From positions 1 through 63,977 of the forward strand of contig CALXEV010000004.1 in assembly GCA_944387425.1 (NCBI GenBank): a DNA stretch of 63,977 nucleotides. Reading direction: 5' to 3'. Below the pieces are notes generated by a model. The model searched no databases. It was not told where the DNA came from and saw nothing but the letters and a program-made list of their open reading frames with translations. The translations under genes and the position numbers were made by a program. Source of the stretch: an uncultured Clostridia bacterium (GTDB taxonomy: Bacteria > Bacillota > Clostridia > TANB77 > CAG-508). This document shows, in pieces, positions 403-60,578 of the stretch (positions are counted from its first letter, which is position 1; each line of letters begins with the position of its first letter).

Positions 403-435
403 GGGGTTTAGTAAAAATACTAAATCTCTTTTTTT
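403..435 (+). terminator. rho-independent terminator after the 87..401 gene
   Basis: 11-bp stem GGGGTTTAGTA / TACTAAATCTC with an AAAA loop, followed by T7. Confidence 0.6.
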
Positions 436-550
436 GTTCAAAAAAGACCCGGTCCCAATTGAACAAAAAAGAACCGGCACCAAATGCTAATTTGCCACCA
501 AGGAACGTCCCTGTGGCAAAATGGCAAAAGAGAACCGGCACCAATTGTCA
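434..550. repeat. family-1 GC-core hairpin repeat cluster 1 (units A-B-C-B)
   Basis: Unit A: TTGTTCAA[AAAAGACCCGGTCCCAA]TTGAACAA (434-466). First unit B: core AAAAGAACCGGCACCAAATG (about 466-486). Unit C: TTTGCCAC[CAAGGAACGTCCCT]GTGGCAAA (491-520). Second unit B: TGGCAA[AAGAGAACCGGCACCAA]TTGTCA (522-550). The same units recur at 8754, 23225, 29513 and 50655. Confidence 0.85.
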
Positions 551-554
551 AATG

Positions 555-3208: not shown

Positions 3209-3730
3209 TACTAGTTGTAATATAGCTACTTCAGCTGCATCTCCTCTACGTGGTCCAGCTTTAACTATTCTTGTATATCCTCCAACTCTTCCTTCATATT
3301 TTGGAGCGATTTCATTGAATAATTTTGCAATTAAATCTATATTATTTCCTTTTTCATCTTTAACTTTGTTTAATTTTGTCATCATTTTTCTTCTAGCATT
3401 TAGTCTTGATGGCATATCTTTTTGTCTTTTTTCTGTTTTTTCTTCTTTAACTACTTTTAAGTATTCATTGCCATTTTTACTTTTTGTTAGTTCTGTAACT
3501 TTGTTACCTTTTGAATCTAATTTTGCTTTAACTACTTTTACATCTACTGTTTCAAAGTTGTCTTTTTCTTTTATAGCTAATGCTATTATGCTATCTGCTA
3601 TAGCTTTTACTTCTTTAGCTCTAGCTTCTGTTGTTTCAACTTTTCCATGTAATATTAAATCTGTTGTTAATGTTTTTAACATTGCATTTCTTATATCAGT
3701 AGTTCTACCTAATTTTCTATTTGTAGCCAA
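3206..3730 (-). CDS. rplQ: 50S ribosomal protein L17 (bL17) with ~50-aa internal Lys/Glu-rich insertion
   Basis: N-terminus [37 protein letters not shown] and C-terminus [25 protein letters not shown] are canonical. It is 174 aa, against ~115-125 aa typically. Confidence 0.9.
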
Positions 3731-8660: not shown

Positions 8661-8680
8661 GCCTCTAAGGGATTAGAGGC
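8661..8680 (-). promoter_or_regulatory. conserved GCCTCTAA hairpin immediately upstream of adk
   Basis: GCCTCTAA-tccc-TTAGAGGC; in mRNA sense it is followed by AAAATTTTTT and then the RBS. It shares TTAGAGGCAAAAWTTTT with the map copy. Confidence 0.5.
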
Positions 8681-8753
8681 CTGTTCTTTTGCATCTATAT
8701 TTTAGCTCATTTTATTTAGTTTGTCAATTATTTTTAAAGTTTATGCAAATTTT

Positions 8754-8918
8754 TTGTCACAGGGACGGTCCTTGGTGACAAAATGCCAAAAAAGACCCGG
8801 TCCCAATTGGCACAATTGAAAAAATGGCAAAAGAGAACCGGCACCAAATGTCAAAATTGCCACCAAGGACCGTCCCTATTGGCAAATTTGCAAAAAAAGA
8901 ACCGGCTCAATTGTCCGG
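8754..8918. repeat. family-1 GC-core hairpin repeat cluster 2 (units C'-A-B-C-B)
   Basis: Unit C' (inverted): TTGTCAC[AGGGACGGTCCTTG]GTGACAA (8754-8781). Unit A: TGCCAA[AAAAGACCCGGTCCCAA]TTGGCA (8784-8812). Unit B: TGGCAA[AAGAGAACCGGCACCAA]ATGTCA (8825-8853). Unit C: TTGCCA[CCAAGGACCGTCCCTA]TTGGCAA (8857-8885). A degenerate B unit follows (8887-8918). Confidence 0.9.
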
Positions 8919-8924
8919 ATCTTT

Positions 8925-10244
8925 CTATTCTAAGAATCCCTTATAATGTCTCATTACTAACTGAGATTCTAATTGTTGTACTGTTTCAAGTGCAACACCT
9001 ACAACGATTAATATTGAAGTTCCACCAAATGAAACATTTAGTGTTGTAAATCTTAATAGCATTGGAAGTATTGCTATAATTGCTAGGAATAAACCACCAA
9101 ATATTGTTAATTTTGAGATTATTGATGATAAATAATCTGTTGTTGGTTTTCCTGCTCTTATTCCTGGGATAAATCCACCATTTTTCTTGATATTATTTGA
9201 TACTTCTGCTGGATTAAATGTAGCATAAGTATAAAAGAATGTGAATCCCATAATTAATAATAAGTATACAATTGCATTTGCTAATGAATATCCCCATCCA
9301 ACACTTGAAGATGATGTTGCCAATGAGAATTTATAAACTCCTGACCAAAATCCTGTTAGTGTTGTAGGATCATTTACAAACATTGAAATTATCATAGCTG
9401 GGAATGTCATGAATGATGATGCAAAGATTACTGGCATAACACCTGCCATTGCAAGCTTTAATGGAATGTGTGTACTTTGTGCTCCAACCATCTTTCTTCC
9501 AACTACTTTTTTAGAGTATTGTACAGGTACTCTTCTTTCAGCTTGTTGTACAAATACAACACCTGCAACTAAAAGAATTGCTCCTATAATAACACCTAAT
9601 GCTGTAATTAGTCCAACTGTACTGAATCCTGTACTTGTAAATATAAGATTCCATATAGTTGTTACCCCTGCAGGTAATCCTGAAATTATACCAATGAATA
9701 TAATTATAGATATACCATTTCCAATTCCTCTACTTGTTATTTGTTCTCCTAGCCACATTAATAGAGATGTTCCTGCTACTAATGATAAAACTACTAGAGT
9801 TCCTGTTAGTAATCCTGAATTTATAAATATTCCAGAATTTCTGTAAGATAAATAGATACCTATAGCTTCTACTAAAGCTAATATTATTGTTACTATTTTT
9901 GTGTATCTATTCATCATTTTTCTTCCTTCTTCTCCACCTTCTTTAGCTAATCTTTCTAAAGCTGGTATTACCATTGCCAATAATTGCACAACAATTGATG
10001 CTGTGATATAAGGGCTTATTGACATTGCAAATATTGAGAATCTTGAGAAAGCTCCTCCTGAAATTAGGTCTATGAATCCTGATATTCCGTTTGTTGAGCT
10101 CATTGCTTCATTTAATGTTATTGTATTTACTCCAGGTACTGTAATATAACATCCTAATCTAAATAATACAATAAGAATTAATGTATATATAAGTCTTTTT
10201 CTTACATCTGGTGTTTTTAAAGCGTTTCTTATCGTTTTAAACAA
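8925..10244 (-). CDS. secY: preprotein translocase subunit SecY
   Basis: 439 aa, 10-TM pattern, between rplO and adk. Confidence 0.97.
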   Translation of the reverse strand: MFKTIRNALKTPDVRKRLIYTLILIVLFRLGCYITVPGVNTITLNEAMSSTNGISGFIDLISGGAFSRFSIFAMSISPYITASIVVQLLAMVIPALERLAKEGGEEGRKMMNRYTKIVTIILALVEAIGIYLSYRNSGIFINSGLLTGTLVVLSLVAGTSLLMWLGEQITSRGIGNGISIIIFIGIISGLPAGVTTIWNLIFTSTGFSTVGLITALGVIIGAILLVAGVVFVQQAERRVPVQYSKKVVGRKMVGAQSTHIPLKLAMAGVMPVIFASSFMTFPAMIISMFVNDPTTLTGFWSGVYKFSLATSSSSVGWGYSLANAIVYLLLIMGFTFFYTYATFNPAEVSNNIKKNGGFIPGIRAGKPTTDYLSSIISKLTIFGGLFLAIIAILPMLLRFTTLNVSFGGTSILIVVGVALETVQQLESQLVMRHYKGFLE

Positions 10245-19852: not shown

Positions 19853-22237
19853 TTATATTTCCTTTGCAAATTTAGCTTTAGCCTCTTCTATAGCTTTTTC
19901 TTGTAAAATCTGTCTTTTTATCAATAAATCTTCTGCTCCTACTATCTTGCATGCGTCTATTGTTGAATTATCTGGTCCTATCCTTACATAAGTTCCGTTC
20001 ACATTACCTTTAAGTCTTATACTTTCATTTCTTTCCTCATCGCTTAATACAATTCCAGATTTTTTTAGTAAATTATCATATTGCTCAATTGCATCAGGAG
20101 AATTTTCAAGATCAGCTATACGAACTAATAAAATATCTGCTTTTGTGTATTTACTTTTAATTTCTATCATATTGTTTAGCATTTTAATCTTTTCGCCCTT
20201 ACTCTTAGCTTCTGAAATTAGTGGGGTATATTTAAAATTAAATTCTTTTTCCATTAGTTCTTTGTAATCTTTAATTTTTTCTTTTGCCATATCATACTTT
20301 TCTTCTAATATATATGTTCCTGCTAAATCTAAATATGATGTTTCTAAAACAGTAGTAGCACGCTCATTATTATATAAACTTTTATTGCTTAAATTTTTGT
20401 CATCTAATATGGTATTTATTGCTTTTTCTAAGTATTTTTTTGCATTTTCAGCATTTTCTTCTATATCCTTTACAAGAAAGTGTCCTATACGTGATAATCC
20501 TGTTGCTTTTTCAAGCGTATTCTCAGATGTACACATATATGCTATTTTGTGAATTTCATCATCTTTAATACTTTTCAAATCCTTTAGTGGTTCAACTTCT
20601 AATACTTCACTAATTATTTGGCAATATTCATTATATCTTTTTTCTTCTTCTGCCATATTTTCTTCATCTTTTATTTTTGAATTTTCTATTGGTTTTACTT
20701 TAGTATCTTTTTTTGGTTCTCCTTCCATTTTTACTTGTGGTTCTTCATCTAGACTTGTTTTGTTTTTTCTTATCGACTTGTCTGTATTTACTTGTCTTGT
20801 ATTATCTACATTAGGCTTTGCTTTTTCAGCTATTTTTTGAAACTTTTCATCTCCATTTATTGTTTTGGTTATATATTTTCCATTTTCTAAAACAATATAT
20901 TCTCCATTTTCAATGCAATTTGAATTTAACACATATCTAAATTCTTCTGCTTTTAGTTCTATTCCAGCTGATTTTAGCATTTTATTATATAGTTCAATTG
21001 CAGAACGTCTTTTTCCCGTTCTACTTAATATCTTTAATAAACCTCTTTGTCCAGTCGCATATTTTCTAATATATTCTGTCAAATACTTTGTTTCATTTTC
21101 TTTATTTCTTGTTTTTCTCGCTTCTATAATAAGTGGCGCATATTTTTTAGATTTTTCTTTGCTTAAAATATCCATATACTTTTGATTCATTTCGTTAGCT
21201 TTTTGATATCTCTTTTGTTTTATATAGATTGCTTGTAACTTTAATAGAGTTTCTTCTAAATACTGGATATTTTCATCACTATTGTTATAAATATCCTCAT
21301 TTTCAAATATTTTTAATGCTGATTTATAATATTTCAAAGCAGAAGAATCACCTTCTTCAAATGTATTTCCTATATTAAATGCTGTAATAGCATTATCTAA
21401 ATCTTCAATTGTGGCAGTTTTTTCATTACCTCTTATATTATTAATAAAATTCAAAATGTTATCCATTATCCCAAATTCTCTTTCTACATATGCTCCCATT
21501 TTTTCTTCACTCTTAGCAGCTCTATTCATAATTCTAGCATCTTGTCCATCTAGCAATGAATCTATAAGATTATGTTCTAAATCAAACCATAATTCATCAT
21601 TATTTTGAACACATTCCATATATCTATATATATCTTCATCATCTTCTAATATAGTAATTACAACTGGATTTAGTTTTCTCTTTAATCTTATTTCCTCAAT
21701 TTTATTTTTAGTAATTTTTTTACATTTTTCATTTATTTTATGATTAGCATATTCTTTTTCTTTATGGTTCATTATATCTTGAATATCTTCTTGATAAAAG
21801 TTACCATTTTCTGTCCTATATTCGACTATGCCTAAATCTTCTTGTATACTTATACTAATTATTTTTTCACTTAAATTTTGCTCAGGTGAATTATTGTCAA
21901 TATTATTTTGTGGATTTAAGTTATTATTAATTGCATTATTTTTTTTGCTAACATTTTTATTTACACTAGTTCTTGCTACTGTAGCATCAGTTCCTTTAGT
22001 ATTAACTATAGTTTGAGTTACTATTGGCTCATTTATATTAATATTTTCTTGTTTCTTAACTTTTTTATTGTTTTTATCTTTTTGAGTTTTTACTTTGTCT
22101 TCTTTGTTTTTCTTAAATCTAAGTTTTAAGTTTTGAAAAGCTTTGCTTATTCTAATCTTAACGCTTGAAAATGTACTTTTAATTTTATTTACTGCTTTTC
22201 CAAATCCATCTTTAATTTTTGAAAAAAATTTTTTCAT
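19853..22237 (-). CDS. 794-aa uncharacterised protein: Lys-rich amphipathic N-terminus plus two internally duplicated helical-repeat (TPR-like) modules
   Basis: Good RBS (GGAGGA). The internal duplication is visible in the pairs KKYAPLIIEARK / FKYTPLISEAKSK, AIELYNKMLKSAGIELKAEEF / AIEQYDNLLKKSGIVLSDEER and ENGEYIVLENGKYI / VNGTYVRIGPDNSTI. There is no TM segment. Confidence 0.6.
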   Translation of the reverse strand: MKKFFSKIKDGFGKAVNKIKSTFSSVKIRISKAFQNLKLRFKKNKEDKVKTQKDKNNKKVKKQENININEPIVTQTIVNTKGTDATVARTSVNKNVSKKNNAINNNLNPQNNIDNNSPEQNLSEKIISISIQEDLGIVEYRTENGNFYQEDIQDIMNHKEKEYANHKINEKCKKITKNKIEEIRLKRKLNPVVITILEDDEDIYRYMECVQNNDELWFDLEHNLIDSLLDGQDARIMNRAAKSEEKMGAYVEREFGIMDNILNFINNIRGNEKTATIEDLDNAITAFNIGNTFEEGDSSALKYYKSALKIFENEDIYNNSDENIQYLEETLLKLQAIYIKQKRYQKANEMNQKYMDILSKEKSKKYAPLIIEARKTRNKENETKYLTEYIRKYATGQRGLLKILSRTGKRRSAIELYNKMLKSAGIELKAEEFRYVLNSNCIENGEYIVLENGKYITKTINGDEKFQKIAEKAKPNVDNTRQVNTDKSIRKNKTSLDEEPQVKMEGEPKKDTKVKPIENSKIKDEENMAEEEKRYNEYCQIISEVLEVEPLKDLKSIKDDEIHKIAYMCTSENTLEKATGLSRIGHFLVKDIEENAENAKKYLEKAINTILDDKNLSNKSLYNNERATTVLETSYLDLAGTYILEEKYDMAKEKIKDYKELMEKEFNFKYTPLISEAKSKGEKIKMLNNMIEIKSKYTKADILLVRIADLENSPDAIEQYDNLLKKSGIVLSDEERNESIRLKGNVNGTYVRIGPDNSTIDACKIVGAEDLLIKRQILQEKAIEEAKAKFAKEI

Positions 22238-23224: not shown

Positions 23225-23269
23225 TGCCATTTTTTCAAAAAAGAACCGGCACAAAATGCCAAAATGGCA
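23225..23269. repeat. family-1 repeat cluster 3 (single B unit inside a TGCCATTTT / AAAATGGCA hairpin)
   Basis: The core AAAAAGAACCGGCAC lies 12 nt downstream of the stop of the 23282..24706 gene. Confidence 0.75.
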
Positions 23270-23281
23270 CAAATGCAATAA

Positions 23282-24706
23282 CTATCTCTCATCTTTATCT
23301 TCAACTTTGACACCTGAATCACTTGGTAAAACAGATTGCGCATAGTCATATAATTCAATTGTATTCTTAGCTAGAGCAGCTACACTTGCCATACTTACTG
23401 AGCTTTCTCCATCTGTAACATATTCAAAATAAGAATCATTAACGATATCAAAAGCTTCTTGGCTTAAAGTTTCTACATCTCCTCCTTCAGTAATTTTATC
23501 ATCAACATAATCAAGCATATAACGCCCTAATGCTGTCTTAAAGTTAAATTCTTCTCCAGGAAGTTGCACTTGAAGTACATCAGAAGAATTCAACATTGTT
23601 ATAAAAAATGCATCCATATTCTCTATATGATCAATTGGATAATTAATATCATTTTCTTTCATTTTTTCAATCAGATAAGGTACACCTTTTTGAATCAAAT
23701 CTTGTAATGTTACTCCTGTTGTTTCCATACAAACTCTCAAAAATTCCATTGATTGGTTATATGATGAATTATATTCTCCAAATGGAATTCCACTTGCAAT
23801 TTCACCAATCATTTCTGCTTTAGCTTCTTCAATTGCCATTCCATAACTATAAACTACACCATATTGTTCAATCTTTGAATAAACTGTTAATTTTGAACTT
23901 GTATATGCTTTTCCTTCATTATAAGCTTCTGAAATTCCATGACCTAATACTTCATGACATAGAGTTTGACAATCAACTTCGTCTTCATTGATTGCTACAA
24001 TTCCAGTTTCAGGATCAAAGTAAGCTATTGTCCCATTTGTCATAGAATTTTCTCTCATTTCTTCATATTCTTGATTTATAATATTCATTCTTGAAATATT
24101 ATAATATAAAACTGATAAATCTAAATCTGCCAATTCTTTTTCAATATTATCCAGTCCTGTTATTAACCACTCTTTATACTGGTCTGTAAAATTATCTTTT
24201 TGCTTAATTAATTCTTTAACTTGTTCATAAGAAGGATTTTTTACATCAAGTTTTTCTACAAATTCCGAAAAACTACATACTGGAGCTGTAATTCCATTTT
24301 CGTCTGTATATTCCTCTAAAATATATACTCCATCTGATATTTGCTTTGGTGTTGAAGCACTAATATTAAATGAATAAATTAACATTACAGCTTCTACTGC
24401 ACACATTGCAATTGATAATGAGCATAGTTTATTTCCTATTATGACTTTGGGGTCTAGTTTTAATTTTCTTTGTTTTGTAAAGCTTTTATCTTTATGGTAT
24501 ACTATTTTATCTTCATCTTTTTTAATATCATAATATTTTTTAGTTGTATAAATTTGATATAATTCTTTGAATTCATCAAATGTTGGATACATCAGTGAAC
24601 CATCATCTAATATTCTTAAAAAGTATTTTTGATAATATTTATTTGACAAAACTTTGAATTTTTTTCCTTTATAACTAATGTTTAACAAAACTCTATATAT
24701 TTCCAT
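23282..24706 (-). CDS. uncharacterised single-pass membrane protein (~474 aa) with an HEVLGH motif
   Basis: One TM segment (LCSLSIAMCAVEAVMLIYSF). The start was moved to the second ATG (24706), after an AGGAGA RBS. It begins 22 nt after comEB, so it is probably co-transcribed. Confidence 0.55.
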   Translation of the reverse strand: MEIYRVLLNISYKGKKFKVLSNKYYQKYFLRILDDGSLMYPTFDEFKELYQIYTTKKYYDIKKDEDKIVYHKDKSFTKQRKLKLDPKVIIGNKLCSLSIAMCAVEAVMLIYSFNISASTPKQISDGVYILEEYTDENGITAPVCSFSEFVEKLDVKNPSYEQVKELIKQKDNFTDQYKEWLITGLDNIEKELADLDLSVLYYNISRMNIINQEYEEMRENSMTNGTIAYFDPETGIVAINEDEVDCQTLCHEVLGHGISEAYNEGKAYTSSKLTVYSKIEQYGVVYSYGMAIEEAKAEMIGEIASGIPFGEYNSSYNQSMEFLRVCMETTGVTLQDLIQKGVPYLIEKMKENDINYPIDHIENMDAFFITMLNSSDVLQVQLPGEEFNFKTALGRYMLDYVDDKITEGGDVETLSQEAFDIVNDSYFEYVTDGESSVSMASVAALAKNTIELYDYAQSVLPSDSGVKVEDKDER

Positions 24707-24728
24707 TAATATTCTCCTCATTTTTGTT

Positions 24729-29473: not shown

Positions 29474-29512
29474 TTTAATCCCCTTGTATATTATATACTC
29501 ATGTATAAAAAA

Positions 29513-29596
29513 TGTTACAAAAAAGACCCGGTCCCAAATGACACCAAATGACATGTGCCAAAAAAGACCCGGTCCCAATTGAAAGAACTTGCACTA
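29513..29596. repeat. family-1 repeat cluster 4 (two A units)
   Basis: The core AAAAGACCCGGTCCCAA occurs at 29521-29537 and 29562-29578. The cluster ends 6 nt downstream of the ferredoxin stop. Confidence 0.85.
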
Positions 29597-29602
29597 ATTG
29601 CT

Positions 29603-50543: not shown

Positions 50544-50654
50544 GTTTCCTCCTTTATTTTATTTCACTTCACCTCTTTTCTGGATTTATTGTACAACTTT
50601 TAACATGAAAATACTGTCTTTTCTTATTGTAGAAAAAAAGAAATAATCGACAAA

Positions 50655-50724
50655 TTGCCATAAGGGACGTTCCTTAATGGCAAATCTTTATAAATTTGTC
50701 ACCAAGGACCGTCCCCTATGGCAA
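50655..50724. repeat. family-1 repeat cluster 5 (two C units, opposite orientation)
   Basis: TTGCCAT[AAGGGACGTTCCTTA]ATGGCAA (50655-50683) and TTGTCA[CCAAGGACCGTCCCCTA]TGGCAA (50696-50724). The cluster ends 5 nt after the patatin stop and lies ~110-180 nt upstream of sigE. Confidence 0.85.
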
Positions 50725-50729
50725 AAAAA

Positions 50730-58067: not shown

Positions 58068-60578
58068 TTAATAATATAATCTATAACAAATATCCATATC
58101 AACTGCTCCATTTATTCCATCTATAGTTCCCATATCAGTATATTGCCACATATCATATTGATTTGAATATCTGTATACATCTGATTCTGCTGGAAATTGC
58201 CCATTTGAGCTAAAATTAAAGTTTGCTACCCATAGTGAATAATCTCCAGGAAGTGCTGATAAGCTAATACTATCATTGAAGAAGTTTTCATATGAATAGA
58301 CTCCTACTTTAAATCCCGCATTTTTTAATATTTCACAATATGTAATTGCTATTTGTGCTGTTAAATCTTTACCTAGATTTACTTGTGTTGAATCTTCTAC
58401 ATCAAAAAATATTGGTAAGTCAAAGTCTGTACAGCCTGTACTCTTTAAGTAATTAACTGTTGCTTCAGCTTCTCTTCTAGCTTCATCAATACTTGTTGCA
58501 TATGAGTAAAAATATGCACCTAGTGGGATATTTCTAGCTTTTGCTTCTCTATAATTTCTTTCAAATTGTTCATCTACATTCAATTGTCTCTTACTTTCAC
58601 TATACCATGCTATTCTTGGTATGATATAGTCTATTTTATTACTTGCCACTAATTGGTCAAAATTTATTTCACCTTGCCATTTAGATACATCTATTCCCAC
58701 AAAATGTCTTTGCTCTTTTTCTTTTAATCCTATAATTACTGCCTCTATTTTTTTGTTTTGACCTGTTGTTCCTGAGATTTCATCATCTATATTCCATCCA
58801 GTCCATCCTTTGTCTTGTACATGAGTTTTATATTCTATTGTATAATCATCTAATCCTACTAATCTAATTTTGATTGATTCTATTTTTAAGCCTTGTCCCA
58901 ATACGCCTGAAACTTCTCCATCTCTTACATAGTCAGTCCAACCTATATTCTCAACATGGGTTGAATATTCTACATGTGCTCCTTCTGGTGCATTTGTTAA
59001 TTCTATACTAATTGCTTCTACTTTTCTATCTTCTCCAGTTGTACCTGAAATTTCTCCATCTGTTTGTATTGTATCTTCTTTTATTGATGAACCTTGTAAA
59101 TATGTATAATATTCTAGTCCAATTTCATTTGGATACTCATTTTTTTCTTTTATTAGTCTAATTTGAATTGCTTCGATTTTTTTATCTTGTGAAATCTTTC
59201 CTGCTATTTCTCCATTTTTTACCCAGTTCATCCATCCTACATCTTGAACATGTACTCTATATTGTACAGAATATTCATCTGTTCCTTCTAGTTTTATTCT
59301 AATTCCAAATACTTTTTTGTTTAAACCTGTTGTTCCTGAAATTTCACCATTACTTGACCATTCTTTCCAGCCATCATTTTCTACATATGTTTTATATTTA
59401 ATTGCTACATTTTCTGGTGCATTATTTAAATTGATTTTTATTGCTTCTATTTTTTTATTTTGTCCTGTTGTTCCTGAAATATCATATTCTGGTTTTGTAT
59501 CTTCCCAGCCTAAATCTTGAACATGTGAACTATATGCTACTGACATTTGAGCTGTTTCTTTAGGTACTATCCTTATTTGAATCGCTTCTATTTTTTTTGC
59601 ATCTCCTAAGTTTCCAGAGATTTCTCCATCATATGCCCAATCCTGCCAGCCTAAGTCTTGTATATGTGTTCTATATGCAATAGAATATTCGTCTGTCCCT
59701 TCTAAGATAATTCTTATTGCTTCCATTTTCAAATTTTTGCCTGTTGTACCTGAAACTTCTCCACTGTTTCTCCATTGTTGCCAACCTTGATTTTCTACAT
59801 AACCTTTATATTTAATAGTTACACCTTCTAGTGCATTGTTTAAATTAATTTTTATTGCCTCTATTTTTTTATTTTGTCCTGTTGTTCCTGAAATATCATA
59901 TTCTGGTCTTGTCTCTTCCCAGCCTAAGTCTTGAACATGTGAACTATATGATACTGTCATTTGGGCTGTTTCTTTAGGCACTATTTTTATTTCAACTGCT
60001 TCTATTTTTTTATTATCACCTAAATTTCCAGCAATTTCCCCATCATATTCCCAATCCAGCCAACCAAAGTCTTGGATATGTGTTCTATAAGCTACAGAAT
60101 ATTCGTCTGTTCCTTCTAGCCAAATTCTTATTGCTTCCATTTTTAAGTTTTTACCTGTAGTTCCTGTTTGCTCTCCATCTGCCACTATTCCCTGCCAACC
60201 GTTGTCTTCAATATAAGAGGTATATTTAATTTTTATATTTGAATTATTGTTTACTAATCTAATATTTAGTGCTTCTATTTTTTTGTTTTGTCCAGTTGTT
60301 CCTACTTGAGTACCAGCTGTAACATAGTCTTGCCATCCCATATCTTGTACATGTGCTCTATATTCTACTGATAATTCTTCTTGTTTTTGTTCTACTGTTT
60401 GACTTTTTATTTCTTCATCTTCTATAACTTCATCATCTTCTGATTTTTCTTGTTGTTCCATATTATTATCTTCTATACCTAGTGTTACTTTTCCTATAGC
60501 AAATACTTGTGATGAAAGCATTGATATTACTAACAATATTGTTATTAGCATTATCATTGCTCTTTTTAAAACTTTCAT
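58068..60578 (-). CDS. secreted ChW-repeat protein with C-terminal GH25 muramidase domain
   Basis: Signal peptide, ~12 ChW-type repeats (Y.xH(V/I)QDxGW...GTTGxxKxxEAIxI) and a C-terminal GIDVSKWQGEINFDQL GH25-like domain. Confidence 0.85.
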   Translation of the reverse strand: MKVLKRAMIMLITILLVISMLSSQVFAIGKVTLGIEDNNMEQQEKSEDDEVIEDEEIKSQTVEQKQEELSVEYRAHVQDMGWQDYVTAGTQVGTTGQNKKIEALNIRLVNNNSNIKIKYTSYIEDNGWQGIVADGEQTGTTGKNLKMEAIRIWLEGTDEYSVAYRTHIQDFGWLDWEYDGEIAGNLGDNKKIEAVEIKIVPKETAQMTVSYSSHVQDLGWEETRPEYDISGTTGQNKKIEAIKINLNNALEGVTIKYKGYVENQGWQQWRNSGEVSGTTGKNLKMEAIRIILEGTDEYSIAYRTHIQDLGWQDWAYDGEISGNLGDAKKIEAIQIRIVPKETAQMSVAYSSHVQDLGWEDTKPEYDISGTTGQNKKIEAIKINLNNAPENVAIKYKTYVENDGWKEWSSNGEISGTTGLNKKVFGIRIKLEGTDEYSVQYRVHVQDVGWMNWVKNGEIAGKISQDKKIEAIQIRLIKEKNEYPNEIGLEYYTYLQGSSIKEDTIQTDGEISGTTGEDRKVEAISIELTNAPEGAHVEYSTHVENIGWTDYVRDGEVSGVLGQGLKIESIKIRLVGLDDYTIEYKTHVQDKGWTGWNIDDEISGTTGQNKKIEAVIIGLKEKEQRHFVGIDVSKWQGEINFDQLVASNKIDYIIPRIAWYSESKRQLNVDEQFERNYREAKARNIPLGAYFYSYATSIDEARREAEATVNYLKSTGCTDFDLPIFFDVEDSTQVNLGKDLTAQIAITYCEILKNAGFKVGVYSYENFFNDSISLSALPGDYSLWVANFNFSSNGQFPAESDVYRYSNQYDMWQYTDMGTIDGINGAVDMDICYRLYY
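59289..60116 (-). repeat. tandem 414-bp (138-aa, three ChW repeats) duplication inside the ChW-GH25 gene
   Basis: Protein residues 155-292 and 293-430 are near-identical. The DNA at 59461 aligns with 59875, an offset of 414 nt. Confidence 0.85.

What the first reader, a model, noticed from the sequence alone, without database searches (positions are those of the whole stretch)
8754..8918. Family 1: modular mosaic of short hairpins with GC-rich cores (BOX/BIME-like) in the secY-adk spacer, most complete cluster
In a genome that looks under 30 percent GC, five intergenic clusters (434-550, 8754-8918, 23225-23269, 29513-29596, 50655-50724) are built from three unit types. Unit A has the loop AAAAGACCCGGTCCCAA. 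Unit B has AAGAGAACCGGCACCAA. Unit C has CAAGGACCGTCCCT and is near-palindromic, so it occurs in both orientations. Each loop is held in a 6-8 bp stem of the TTGCCA/TGGCAA type, and the stem bases vary with compensating or G-T changes (TGCCAA/TTGGCA, TGGCAA/TTGTCA, TTGTTCAA/TTGAACAA, TTGTCAC/GTGACAA). Clusters 1 and 2 share the unit order A-B-C-B. All A and B units have the same orientation on the plus strand, which is antisense to the flanking genes. Every cluster ends 4-12 nt from the stop codon of a minus-strand gene (sleB, secY, the 474-aa gene, ferredoxin, patatin). None is followed by a proper U-tract, so they are not ordinary terminators. This resembles the REP/BIME and BOX repeats of other phyla, but I cannot assign the sequences to a described family, and no RAYT-like or other transposase gene is in the window.
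Basis: seen in the sequence. Interest (0 to 1): 0.65.

Follow-up and report, generated by a model that had tools for sequence, protein, structure and literature searches.

The report
REP-like hairpin repeats of gut Clostridia
The secY-adk spacer holds copies of a short hairpin-forming repeat that fills intergenic DNA in a group of uncultured gut Clostridia; in relatives the repeat flanks a single-copy REP-type tyrosine transposase gene, so it is a Gram-positive counterpart of the E. coli REP/BIME elements and not a new kind of element.

Summary
All five clusters exist at the stated coordinates, and a covariance model finds no others in the window. The unit is a 6-8 bp stem of variable, covarying sequence around a 17-nt loop made of an A-run, an 11-nt GC core and AAT. 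Types A, B and C are dialects of one superfamily whose ancestral core is GAACCGTCCCC. Units occur in about 19 species-level MAGs of low-GC gut Clostridia. They are almost all intergenic, rare between divergent genes, and show no strand bias relative to transcription. Inverted pairs have one polarity (37 against 2). Conspecific strains differ by whole units, and one array is A-A in some strains and B-B-B-B in others. In relatives, including a chicken-gut species, the same units flank a single-copy, syntenic 260-aa HUH/Y1 gene on both sides in inverted orientation. Its only NCBIfam hit is the RAYT model, and its best structural match is 4ER8, the E. coli RAYT-REP complex. Across 80 diverse metagenome loci of this protein family, GAACCGTCCCC hairpins flank the gene in the same polarity. 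Verdict: REP/BIME-like elements of a RAYT-type (TIRYT, subclass 2.1-like) transposase, a new variant of a known kind. The transposase gene was not shown in the window's own genome.

The parts
432..468 (+). Cluster 1, unit A (TTGTTCAA-AAAAGACCCGGTCCCAA-TTGAACAA)
   Evidence: Covariance model R1 scores 48.6 bits, E 5e-8. The unit is absent as a 25-nt indel in strain L127.
460..492 (+). Cluster 1, unit B with a poor stem (core 471-481)
   Evidence: Exact core; partial R1 hit at 469-483.
491..520 (+). Cluster 1, unit C (core GGAACGTCCC, 502-511)
   Evidence: The unit is absent as a 29-nt indel in strains L125, L126 and L127.
518..554 (+). Cluster 1, unit B, ending 4 nt from the sleB stop codon
   Evidence: R1 scores 37.7 bits.
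8750..8785 (-). Cluster 2, unit C in inverted orientation. It pairs with the C unit at 8856-8889 to close a long hairpin.
   Evidence: R1 scores 21.1 bits on the - strand. The fold of the mRNA-sense strand is -83.8 kcal/mol, z -8.2.
8780..8816 (+). Cluster 2, unit A
   Evidence: R1 scores 45.3 bits. In strains L005 and L006 units A and B are replaced by other sequence.
8821..8857 (+). Cluster 2, unit B
   Evidence: R1 scores 39.8 bits. Contig depth here is 30-83 times that of the unique flanks in four metagenome runs.
8856..8889 (+). Cluster 2, unit C (core 8867-8876)
   Evidence: The unit is missing in strain L001 and in a contig of run X23.
8885..8919 (+). Cluster 2, degenerate unit B' next to the secY stop codon (8925-8927). 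In the mRNA sense it reads GAUCCGG-9 nt-CCGGUUC followed by U7.
   Evidence: R1 scores 16.8 bits; hairpin seen in the fold.
23229..23265 (+). Cluster 3, single unit B
   Evidence: R1 scores 29.9 bits. Strains L168 and L170 carry one more B-like unit here.
29511..29588 (+). Cluster 4, two A units (29511-29547 and 29552-29588). A decayed B core lies between them and the ferredoxin stop codon.
   Evidence: R1 scores 40.4 and 40.3 bits. Strains L173 and L175 have four B units here between the same flanks.
50651..50728 (.). Cluster 5, an inverted pair of C units (50651-50687 on -, 50692-50728 on +)
   Evidence: R1 scores 14.5 and 33.1 bits. The cluster has the same length in 10 strains, with one G/T difference in a core.
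8699..8727 (-). Context, not part of the repeat: promoter-like site for adk (TTGACA-17-TAAAAT). It places cluster 2 between the end of the secY transcript and the adk promoter.
   Evidence: 11 of 12 consensus matches. This is a consensus match only.

Best explanation
The clusters are mosaics of REP-like units. Each unit is a 31-37 nt hairpin. Its 6-8 bp stem differs from copy to copy but stays complementary. Its loop holds an A-run, an 11-nt GC-rich core and AAT. The window's cores (GACCCGGTCCC, GAACCGGCACC, GGACCGTCCCT) are dialects of GAACCGTCCCC.

In related genomes the same units flank, in the polarity '<unit gene unit>', a single-copy gene kept at a fixed chromosomal place. The gene encodes a 260-aa HUH/tyrosine (Y1) transposase of the RAYT (TnpA_REP) kind with an added C-terminal helical domain.

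Most likely mechanism: the enzyme recognises the folded hairpin on one DNA strand, the strand reading GGGACCGGTTC followed by a T-run, while the DNA is single-stranded. It cuts and rejoins there. This spreads, duplicates, deletes and swaps units and inverted doublets in the non-coding DNA downstream of genes. The units are transcribed with their neighbours and make stable RNA hairpins. These may protect mRNA 3' ends, but I regard that as a side effect.

Shown: the repeat family, its hairpin, its genomic distribution, the turnover between strains, and the flanking of the Y1 gene in relatives. Inferred: that the enzyme moves the units, that single-stranded DNA is the substrate, and that the source genome has the gene.
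For: Family and structure:
- Units occur in about 19 low-GC Clostridia MAGs.
- The stems covary.
- The strand reading GGGACCGGTTC folds better in 135 of 148 units, mean -7.6 against -4.5 kcal/mol, through G.U pairs and an inner helix.

Distribution:
- At most 23% of units fall in my over-long ORF calls, where 88% of the DNA is coding. Counting clusters, 3 lie between divergent genes against 15 between convergent and 81 between tandem genes.
- Adjacent inverted pairs are 37 '<X X>' against 2 'X> <X'.
- Contig depth over the units is 12-83 times that of the unique flanks.

Turnover between strains that share their flanks:
- Unit-sized indels and an A-A to B-B-B-B swap.
- 1, 3 or 6 tandem units at one site.

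The enzyme:
- L084 ORF 5484-6272 hits Pfam Y1_Tnp at 35.8 bits, above the cut-off of 23.
- Its only NCBIfam hit is REP_Tyr_transpos, E 1e-14.
- The HxH, RF, Y..NP and SS motifs align with E. coli RayT.
- An AF2 model (pLDDT 83) best matches 4ER8_A, the RAYT-REP complex, E 6e-8, TM 0.73.

Association of enzyme and repeat:
- Units lie on both sides of the gene in L084, L182-188, L278-283 and the chicken-gut loci L284-289.
- The gene is single-copy, after sipL-yunB in four of the five species clusters looked up; the chicken-gut species has it elsewhere.
- An ortholog at 62% identity is flanked by a different repeat of the same architecture.
- In 80 diverse metagenome loci the core lies upstream on the - strand in 42 of 75 (5 on +) and downstream on the + strand in 25 of 48 (7 on -), with 0 hits in 53.8 kb of gene bodies.
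Against: - The Y1 gene was not found in the window and could not be looked for in the rest of the source genome. The nearest carrier is a different chicken-gut species, whose neighbouring protein is 56% identical to the window's.
- No activity data exist for this protein subclass. The NCBIfam score (54.7) is below the curated cut-off (80), and sequence searches of the PDB find nothing.
- Units show no clear bias relative to GC skew, 118 against 91. IS200/IS605 elements do show a lagging-strand bias.
- B-type units fold weakly on either strand.
- Array expansion and contraction could be replication slippage without any enzyme.
- Only one Y1 gene was seen per locus, whereas the window has three core dialects. 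In Pseudomonas each REPIN family has its own RAYT.
Confidence: 0.7

Rival explanations
1. The units are kept by selection as RNA elements at mRNA 3' ends, acting as barriers to 3'-5' exonucleases, processing sites or weak terminators. The transposase link is incidental.
For: Every window cluster starts 4-12 nt after a stop codon. Clusters whose strongly folding strand is in the mRNA lie a median 16 nt from the upstream stop codon. The whole cluster 2 folds at -83.8 kcal/mol in the mRNA sense, z -8.2. The repeats are abundant in chicken-gut metatranscriptome contigs. Established knowledge: E. coli REPs stabilise upstream mRNA.
Against: There is no orientation preference relative to transcription: 64 to 61 units and 29 to 22 single-orientation clusters. 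Yet one strand folds far better. The arrangement that would make a bidirectional terminator (A-run, stem, loop, stem, T-run) is the avoided one, 2 against 37. Most units lack a U-tract after the hairpin. Units come and go between strains with identical flanking genes. Contigs carry no strand or 3'-end information, and DNA carry-over cannot be excluded.
Confidence: 0.15
2. The units multiply and change only by passive processes (replication slippage, quasi-palindrome correction, gene conversion between copies) with no dedicated enzyme.
For: Tandem arrays have strict periods of 31-36 nt and differ in copy number between strains. The A-A to B-B-B-B swap looks like conversion. A hairpin loop in the adk leader is flipped between strains, as expected from template switching.
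Against: Passive processes do not seed copies into dozens of unlinked intergenic sites. They do not explain the one-sided polarity of doublets. They do not explain why the same core flanks one protein family across lineages of 31-68% GC.
Confidence: 0.1
3. The GC cores are double-stranded DNA sites for a dimeric regulator, a nucleoid protein or a restriction-modification enzyme, or they are DNA uptake sequences.
For: The cores are short dyads (GACC-N-GGTC, ACCGGT, GGAC-N-GTCC). Ten of the 18 CCGG sites in the window lie in the clusters.
Against: The flanking stems covary in sequence, which a base-specific dimeric protein would not require. The units are asymmetric (A5 on one side, AAT on the other) and favour one strand through G.U pairs. 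One genome holds three dialects. Units are nearly absent from coding DNA, unlike uptake sequences. They are essentially absent from 2.9 million viral contigs.
Confidence: 0.04

Closest known systems
E. coli REP/BIME elements and their RAYT (TnpA_REP, RayT/YafM; PDB 4ER8)
   Same: Both are short extragenic palindromes in many copies, lying downstream of genes. Both form mosaic clusters of several unit types, and both have a single-copy HUH/Y1 gene flanked by the units. The predicted fold of the Clostridia protein matches 4ER8 best.
   Different: There is no GT[AG]G foot: it occurs in 3 of 148 units. The conserved part is the loop and the stem is variable, whereas in REP the stem is conserved. 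The protein is about 100 aa longer, is only 15% identical, and scores below NCBI's RAYT cut-off.
TIRtrons / TIRYT (Di Nocera et al. 2013, PMC3733652), equal to TnpA_Y1 subclass 2.1 (Quentin et al. 2018, PMC6006769) and Bertels' RAYT Group 1
   Same: The motifs NHVH, Y[IV]H.NP and SS fit. So do the length of about 240-260 aa, the HTH-like C-terminal tail, the low copy number, and the inverted repeats around the gene that share GGGGWSAS. The chicken-gut locus has GGGGACAG next to the gene, and the units have GGGGACGG.
   Different: Quentin et al. found no REP-like sequences for subclass 2.1. Di Nocera et al. reported only moderately abundant TIR families and mention no Firmicutes. Here the flanking repeats are true hairpins with a conserved GGGGACGGTTC loop, are high-copy, and form BIME-like mosaics. 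Membership was judged from motifs; the authors' HMMs were not run.
REPINs of Pseudomonas fluorescens
   Same: Both have inverted doublets of one fixed polarity that can fold into long hairpins, several families per genome, and a vertically inherited cognate transposase.
   Different: Here many units are singletons or direct tandem arrays (51 of 118 clusters are single units; 52 of 91 adjacent pairs are direct). The sequences are unrelated.
BOX elements of Streptococcus pneumoniae
   Same: Both are modular A-B-C mosaics in a low-GC Gram-positive genome, are intergenic, and are transcribed with neighbouring genes.
   Different: BOX modules are 45-59 nt, have a fixed order A-Bn-C, and have no known transposase (my own knowledge).
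IS200/IS605 insertion sequences
   Same: The catalytic domain is the same (Pfam PF01797), and hairpins are the recognition elements at the ends.
   Different: The gene here is single-copy and syntenic, not multi-copy. No tnpB was seen beside it. The hairpins, not the gene, are what has multiplied.

Membership tests
REP (canonical, GTAG-tagged) | Short (20-40 nt) imperfect palindrome, many copies, extragenic | tested here: met
   Units are 31-37 nt. 209 units were found in 65 loci, and at most 23% fall in ORF calls where 88% of the DNA is coding. Contig depth over the units is 12-83 times that of the flanks.
REP (canonical, GTAG-tagged) | Conserved GT[AG]G tetranucleotide at the foot of the hairpin | tested here: not met
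   GT[AG]G occurs anywhere in only 3 of 148 units, and the feet are A/T runs.
REP (canonical, GTAG-tagged) | Lies between convergent or tandem genes and is rare between divergent genes | tested here: met
   81 tandem, 15 convergent and 3 divergent clusters. Divergent regions make up 8% of the intergenic regions and 16% of their length.
REPtron (RAYT plus cognate REPs) | An HUH/Y1 gene of the RAYT clade with intact HUH and Tyr motifs | tested here: met
   Met in relatives: Pfam Y1_Tnp above its cut-off, RAYT as the only NCBIfam hit although below its cut-off, conserved motifs, and 4ER8 as the best structural match.
REPtron (RAYT plus cognate REPs) | The gene is flanked on both sides by the genome's dispersed repeat | tested here: met
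   Seen in L084, L182-188, L278-283 and L284-289, and in 21 of 44 metagenome loci that have both flanks.
REPtron (RAYT plus cognate REPs) | The gene is present in the genome that holds the window | not testable with these tools
   The gene is not in the window. The rest of the genome could not be reached.
REPtron (RAYT plus cognate REPs) | The gene is single-copy and vertically inherited, and protein and repeat co-vary | tested here: met
   The gene follows sipL-yunB in four of the five species clusters looked up; the chicken-gut species has it elsewhere. Each protein sequence sits on few contigs. An ortholog at 62% identity carries a different core.
TIRYT / TnpA_Y1 subclass 2.1 | Motifs NHVH, W[EQ]/FQ, Y[IV]HLNP and SS; C-terminal HTH-like tail; median length 238 aa | tested here: inconclusive
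   NHVH, YVHRNP, WSSY and the length of 262 aa fit. The W position is VQ. Only faint HTH hits appear, in 1 of 18 members each. The published HMMs were not available.
TIRYT / TnpA_Y1 subclass 2.1 | Flanking inverted repeats with GGGGWSAS | tested here: met
   GGGGACAG and its complement CTGTCCCC lie next to the gene in L286. Most other loci have GGGGACGG, a 7 of 8 match.
Intrinsic (Rho-independent) terminator | GC-rich hairpin directly followed by a U-tract on the transcribed strand | tested here: not met
   The scan finds none in the units. Only unit B' at 8885-8919 approaches the form. The terminator-shaped doublet is the rare one, 2 against 37.
BOX elements | boxA-boxB(n)-boxC modules with pneumococcal consensus sequences | not tested
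The module sizes differ, from my own knowledge.
CRISPR array | Direct repeats separated by unique spacers of similar length | tested here: not met
   Arrays have a period of 31-36 nt, equal to the unit length, with no spacers.

The most novel reading that the evidence does not exclude
Hairpins with a variable stem and the conserved loop GGGGACGGTTC may be the cognate, genome-wide repeat of the large TnpA_Y1 subclass 2.1 / TIRYT group. That group was reported to have no REP-like partner. If so, this is a third REP superfamily, beside the GTAG- and CGTC-tagged ones, spanning lineages from 31 to 68% GC. In gut Clostridia it would still be active, since units are gained, lost and swapped between conspecific strains in public metagenomes.
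Probability: 0.5. Interest if true: 0.65.

Novelty: new variant of a known kind. Interest (0 to 1): 0.5.

Why it matters
What RAYTs do, and whether REPs are parasites, partners or tools, is still open. Almost all evidence comes from Proteobacteria.

This finding offers a Gram-positive system with three useful properties:
- The recognition element sits in a hairpin loop with a core conserved across many lineages.
- The enzyme belongs to a subclass thought to lack repeats.
- Natural strain series in gut metagenomes already show unit-level gains, losses and swaps.

These properties make three things directly testable: the enzyme-hairpin specificity, using loop against stem mutants; the rate of turnover; and any effect on neighbouring genes.

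There is also a practical point. These repeats break short-read assemblies of these abundant gut bacteria, so Y1 genes often sit on 1-kb contigs. They could also serve as strain markers.

Tried and rejected
- Rfam, at gathering thresholds and at E up to 10, gave only chance matches of the long hairpin to plant miRNA precursors.
- Literature searches for the core strings found nothing relevant.
- BLAST of cluster 2 against plasmid and phage records gave no match.
- The viral-contig scan gave 22 hits, almost all single chance hits. The one real inverted pair lies at a contig end.
- An all-against-all comparison of ORFs in 65 repeat-bearing loci found no recurrent neighbour gene.
- A single-sequence phmmer search with E. 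coli RayT missed the Y1 gene; the true ORF was the top hit but at E 1.8. The gene was found only when I annotated a repeat-dense locus with Pfam.
- PDB sequence searches with the protein and with its profile gave nothing. hhalign against RayT alone gave low probability although the motifs aligned in register.
- Orientation relative to GC skew showed no consistent bias.
- I considered insertion into the centre of pre-existing palindromes, because two empty sites are small palindromes. Two or three cases cannot separate this from deletion between the near-direct stem halves.
- CCGG and GGWCC restriction-site ideas gave no avoidance signal outside the repeats.
- A type III toxin-antitoxin RNA array and CsrA or CodY sites were considered and dropped, because the units are dispersed, occur in both orientations, and have no matching partner gene.
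- Two look-ups aimed at the source organism's ortholog landed on a human-gut species and on a different chicken-gut species.
- Metatranscriptome runs are held only as contigs that break at the repeats, so they gave no 3'-end or strand information.

Full report
THE OBSERVATION

The degenerate core GAMCSGKYMCC occurs 7 times against none in 100 shuffles. With up to two mismatches, every listed unit is recovered and nothing convincing is found elsewhere.

A covariance model (R1) built from 148 units of related genomes was run over the window without filters. It gives 8 hits at E<0.001 and several weaker ones, all inside the same five clusters. The next hit is noise. The clusters sit in 5 of the 19 intergenic regions of at least 100 nt. 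No Rfam family matches.

All A and B units are on the + strand. Each cluster ends 4-12 nt from a minus-strand stop codon. The window is 25-33% GC with nearly all genes on the minus strand. It comes from a bacterium of the chicken gut.

THE UNIT

Many hits fell in about 19 MAGs labelled uncultured Clostridia or Clostridium, from humans, chickens, rabbits and ruminants, at 24-33% GC. One is a closed 1.55-Mb chromosome. There were also single chance hits in unrelated phyla.

Aligned on the core, the units share one plan:
- a stem half, often TGnnCn;
- AAAAA or AAAGA;
- an 11-nt core;
- AA(A)T;
- the complementary stem half.

The cores are GAACCGGTCCC, GACCCGGTCCC, GAACCGGCACC, GAACCGGTACC, GAACCGTCCCC and GGACCGACCCC.

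The stem is real. Scores of at least 5 occur in 60% of units against 19% of chimeric controls. Mutual information at the variable pairs far exceeds permutation. On the gapless alignment A3, 73% of cells pair, against 49% in shuffles and 39-42% for partners slid by one column. The covariation score is 0.50 against 0.16, reached by none of 500 shuffles. Related copies inflate such scores, but many different stems occur (TGTCCC/GGGACA, TGCACC/GGTGCA, TTGGCAC/GTGCCAA).

The two strands are not equivalent. The strand reading GGGACCGGTTC followed by a T-run folds better in 135 of 148 units, mean -7.6 against -4.5 kcal/mol. On that strand the mismatches become G.U pairs, and the loop closes into a short inner helix.

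WHERE THE UNITS LIE

In 65 low-GC loci I found 209 units in 118 clusters. The DNA is 88% coding, yet at most 23% of units fall inside my deliberately over-long ORF calls.

Counting clusters, 81 lie between tandem genes, 15 between convergent genes and only 3 between divergent genes. Divergent regions are 8% of the intergenic regions and 16% of their length.

Relative to the flanking genes the units are sense 64 and antisense 61. For clusters of a single orientation the split is 29 to 22. There is no consistent bias against GC skew either, 118 to 91, and the window's organism leans the opposite way to several relatives.

Adjacent inverted pairs are 37 in the polarity '<X X>', with the T-run and A-run facing each other. 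Only 2 have the polarity that would look like a bidirectional terminator. Direct arrays have periods of 31-36 nt.

Forward units often end right at the next gene's Shine-Dalgarno sequence.

COPY NUMBER AND EXPRESSION

In four chicken-gut runs of unstated library type, summed contig depth over units A and B is 12-83 times that of the unique flanks. Dozens of different sequences continue from the units. Four metatranscriptome runs show the same pile-up. Those contigs break at the repeats and carry no strand, so they show presence in RNA libraries and nothing about 3' ends. The units are essentially absent from 2.9 million viral contigs and from plasmid and phage records.

TURNOVER BETWEEN STRAINS

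Contigs that encode identical neighbouring proteins differ by whole units:
- Downstream of sleB, unit C (29 nt) is missing in three strains and unit A (25 nt) in one.
- In the secY-adk spacer, two strains have other sequence in place of B and A. Three strains lack C and carry a rhuM/Bro-N gene. A metagenome contig also lacks C.
- Cluster 3 has one more unit in two strains.
- Cluster 4 is A-A in the window but B-B-B-B between the same flanks in two strains.
- Cluster 5 is stable.
- In a human-gut relative, one site holds 1, 3 or 6 tandem units.

THE TRANSPOSASE

The window has no Y1 gene.

I annotated a repeat-dense block of the closed chromosome (L084). A 262-aa ORF there hits Pfam Y1_Tnp at 35.8 bits against a cut-off of 23. 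It has three units on each side. Its only NCBIfam hit is the RAYT equivalog, E 1e-14, over the whole profile but below the curated cut-off.

The HxH, RF, Y..NP and SS motifs align with E. coli RayT, and a conserved tail of about 110 aa follows. An AlphaFold model (pLDDT 83) matches best the E. coli RAYT-REP complex 4ER8 (E 6e-8, TM 0.73), then the IS608, ISDra2 and IS200 transposases.

There are 740 close homologues of 257-273 aa. Most sit on one or a few contigs, often contigs of about 1 kb.

In four species clusters the gene sits after sipL-yunB, usually before a nuoE-like operon. Units lie upstream on the minus strand and downstream on the plus strand of the gene. This is the polarity of the dispersed doublets.

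An ortholog at 62% identity is flanked by a different repeat with the same plan, TGCAC-A7-GCGATCTCACG-TGCA.

A chicken-gut species from the same studies as the window has the arrangement '<C <C gene C> C> C>', with GGGGACAG next to the gene. Its neighbouring protein is only 56% identical to the window's, so it is another species.

BREADTH OF THE ASSOCIATION

A metagenome scan with the protein profile found 584 relatives. The best 80 loci are 29-69% identical and 31-68% GC. In 20 of 37 loci with both flanks, the two flanks share an inverted repeat of at least 14 nt, centred on GGGGACGGTTC.

The core lies within 250 nt upstream on the minus strand in 42 of 75 loci, against 5 on the plus strand. 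It lies downstream on the plus strand in 25 of 48, against 7 on the minus strand. It never occurs in 53.8 kb of gene bodies. In each case it is the loop of a hairpin whose stem differs between genomes.

COMPARISON WITH WHAT IS KNOWN

By its motifs, length and tail, the protein fits TnpA_Y1 subclass 2.1 of Quentin et al. (PMC6006769). They equate that subclass with the TIRYTs of Di Nocera et al. (PMC3733652) and with Bertels' Group 1, which is found in Clostridia too (PMC5581495).

Quentin et al. found no REP-like sequences for this subclass. Di Nocera et al. described flanking inverted repeats with GGGGWSAS and some moderately abundant families, and mention no Firmicutes.

The canonical GT[AG]G foot is absent here. 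CGTC-tagged REPs have a different plan: the tag is at one end and the loops are 4-5 nt.

So this works like a REP/RAYT system but fails one defining feature of canonical REPs. It extends a subclass thought to be repeat-free.

MECHANISM, LIMITS AND VERDICT

I take the units to be non-autonomous elements handled by the Y1 enzyme on single-stranded DNA. RNA hairpin effects would be a by-product.

No part of the mechanism has been demonstrated directly: enzyme activity, the substrate strand, target choice, and presence of the gene in the source genome are all inferred. Passive slippage and conversion surely contribute to array changes.

The finding is sound. The novelty is that of a new variant of a known kind.

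Noticed in passing
L001:1858-2883, also L004 and L007; corresponds to window 8740-8790: In three strains a 341-aa rhuM/Bro-N gene with its own promoter-like site sits between secY and adk, directly after the repeat units. It replaces the inverted C unit. The repeats may act as a recombination or insertion site for a gene cassette inside the ribosomal protein operon.
   Followed up: partly
window 8661-8680 (- strand): Downstream of the adk promoter-like site lies a hairpin, GGCCTCTAA-tccc-TTAGAGGC, followed by AAAATTTTTT in the adk leader. Its 4-nt loop is inverted (ggga) in strains L005 and L001 and in several metagenome contigs. It could be a leader terminator or attenuator whose loop flips.
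   Followed up: partly
whole window: GATC is strongly under-represented, 28 sites against about 100 expected from a Markov model. This suggests a GATC-specific restriction system in this lineage.
   Followed up: no
window 19853-22237 (-) and 23282-24721 (-): Two large ORFs of 794 aa and 479 aa have no Pfam family at E up to 0.001. The 794-aa protein is lysine- and asparagine-rich. The 479-aa gene ends next to cluster 3.
   Followed up: no
L190:2290-2390 and 3280-3470: A human-gut relative carries a second repeat family with the same plan but the core GCGATCTCACG around its Y1 gene. The spacers on both sides differ in length between strains.
   Followed up: partly
L278:4059-4249, L279 and L282 4058-4142, L280 3994: A tandem array of 36-nt units between the nuoE-like and nuoF-like genes has 6, 3 or 1 copies in strains with the identical Y1 protein. 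It behaves like a VNTR-type strain marker.
   Followed up: partly
window 58068-60578 (-): This ORF encodes an 836-aa protein with 12 ChW repeats and a GH25 muramidase domain, a large cell-wall hydrolase.
   Followed up: no
window 29589-29602: Next to the ferredoxin stop codon is a decayed B core (TTAGTGCAAGTTCTTT). The intact form TTAGTGCCGGTTCTCTTTT is present in strains L173 and L175. The CCGG has changed to CAAG.
   Followed up: partly
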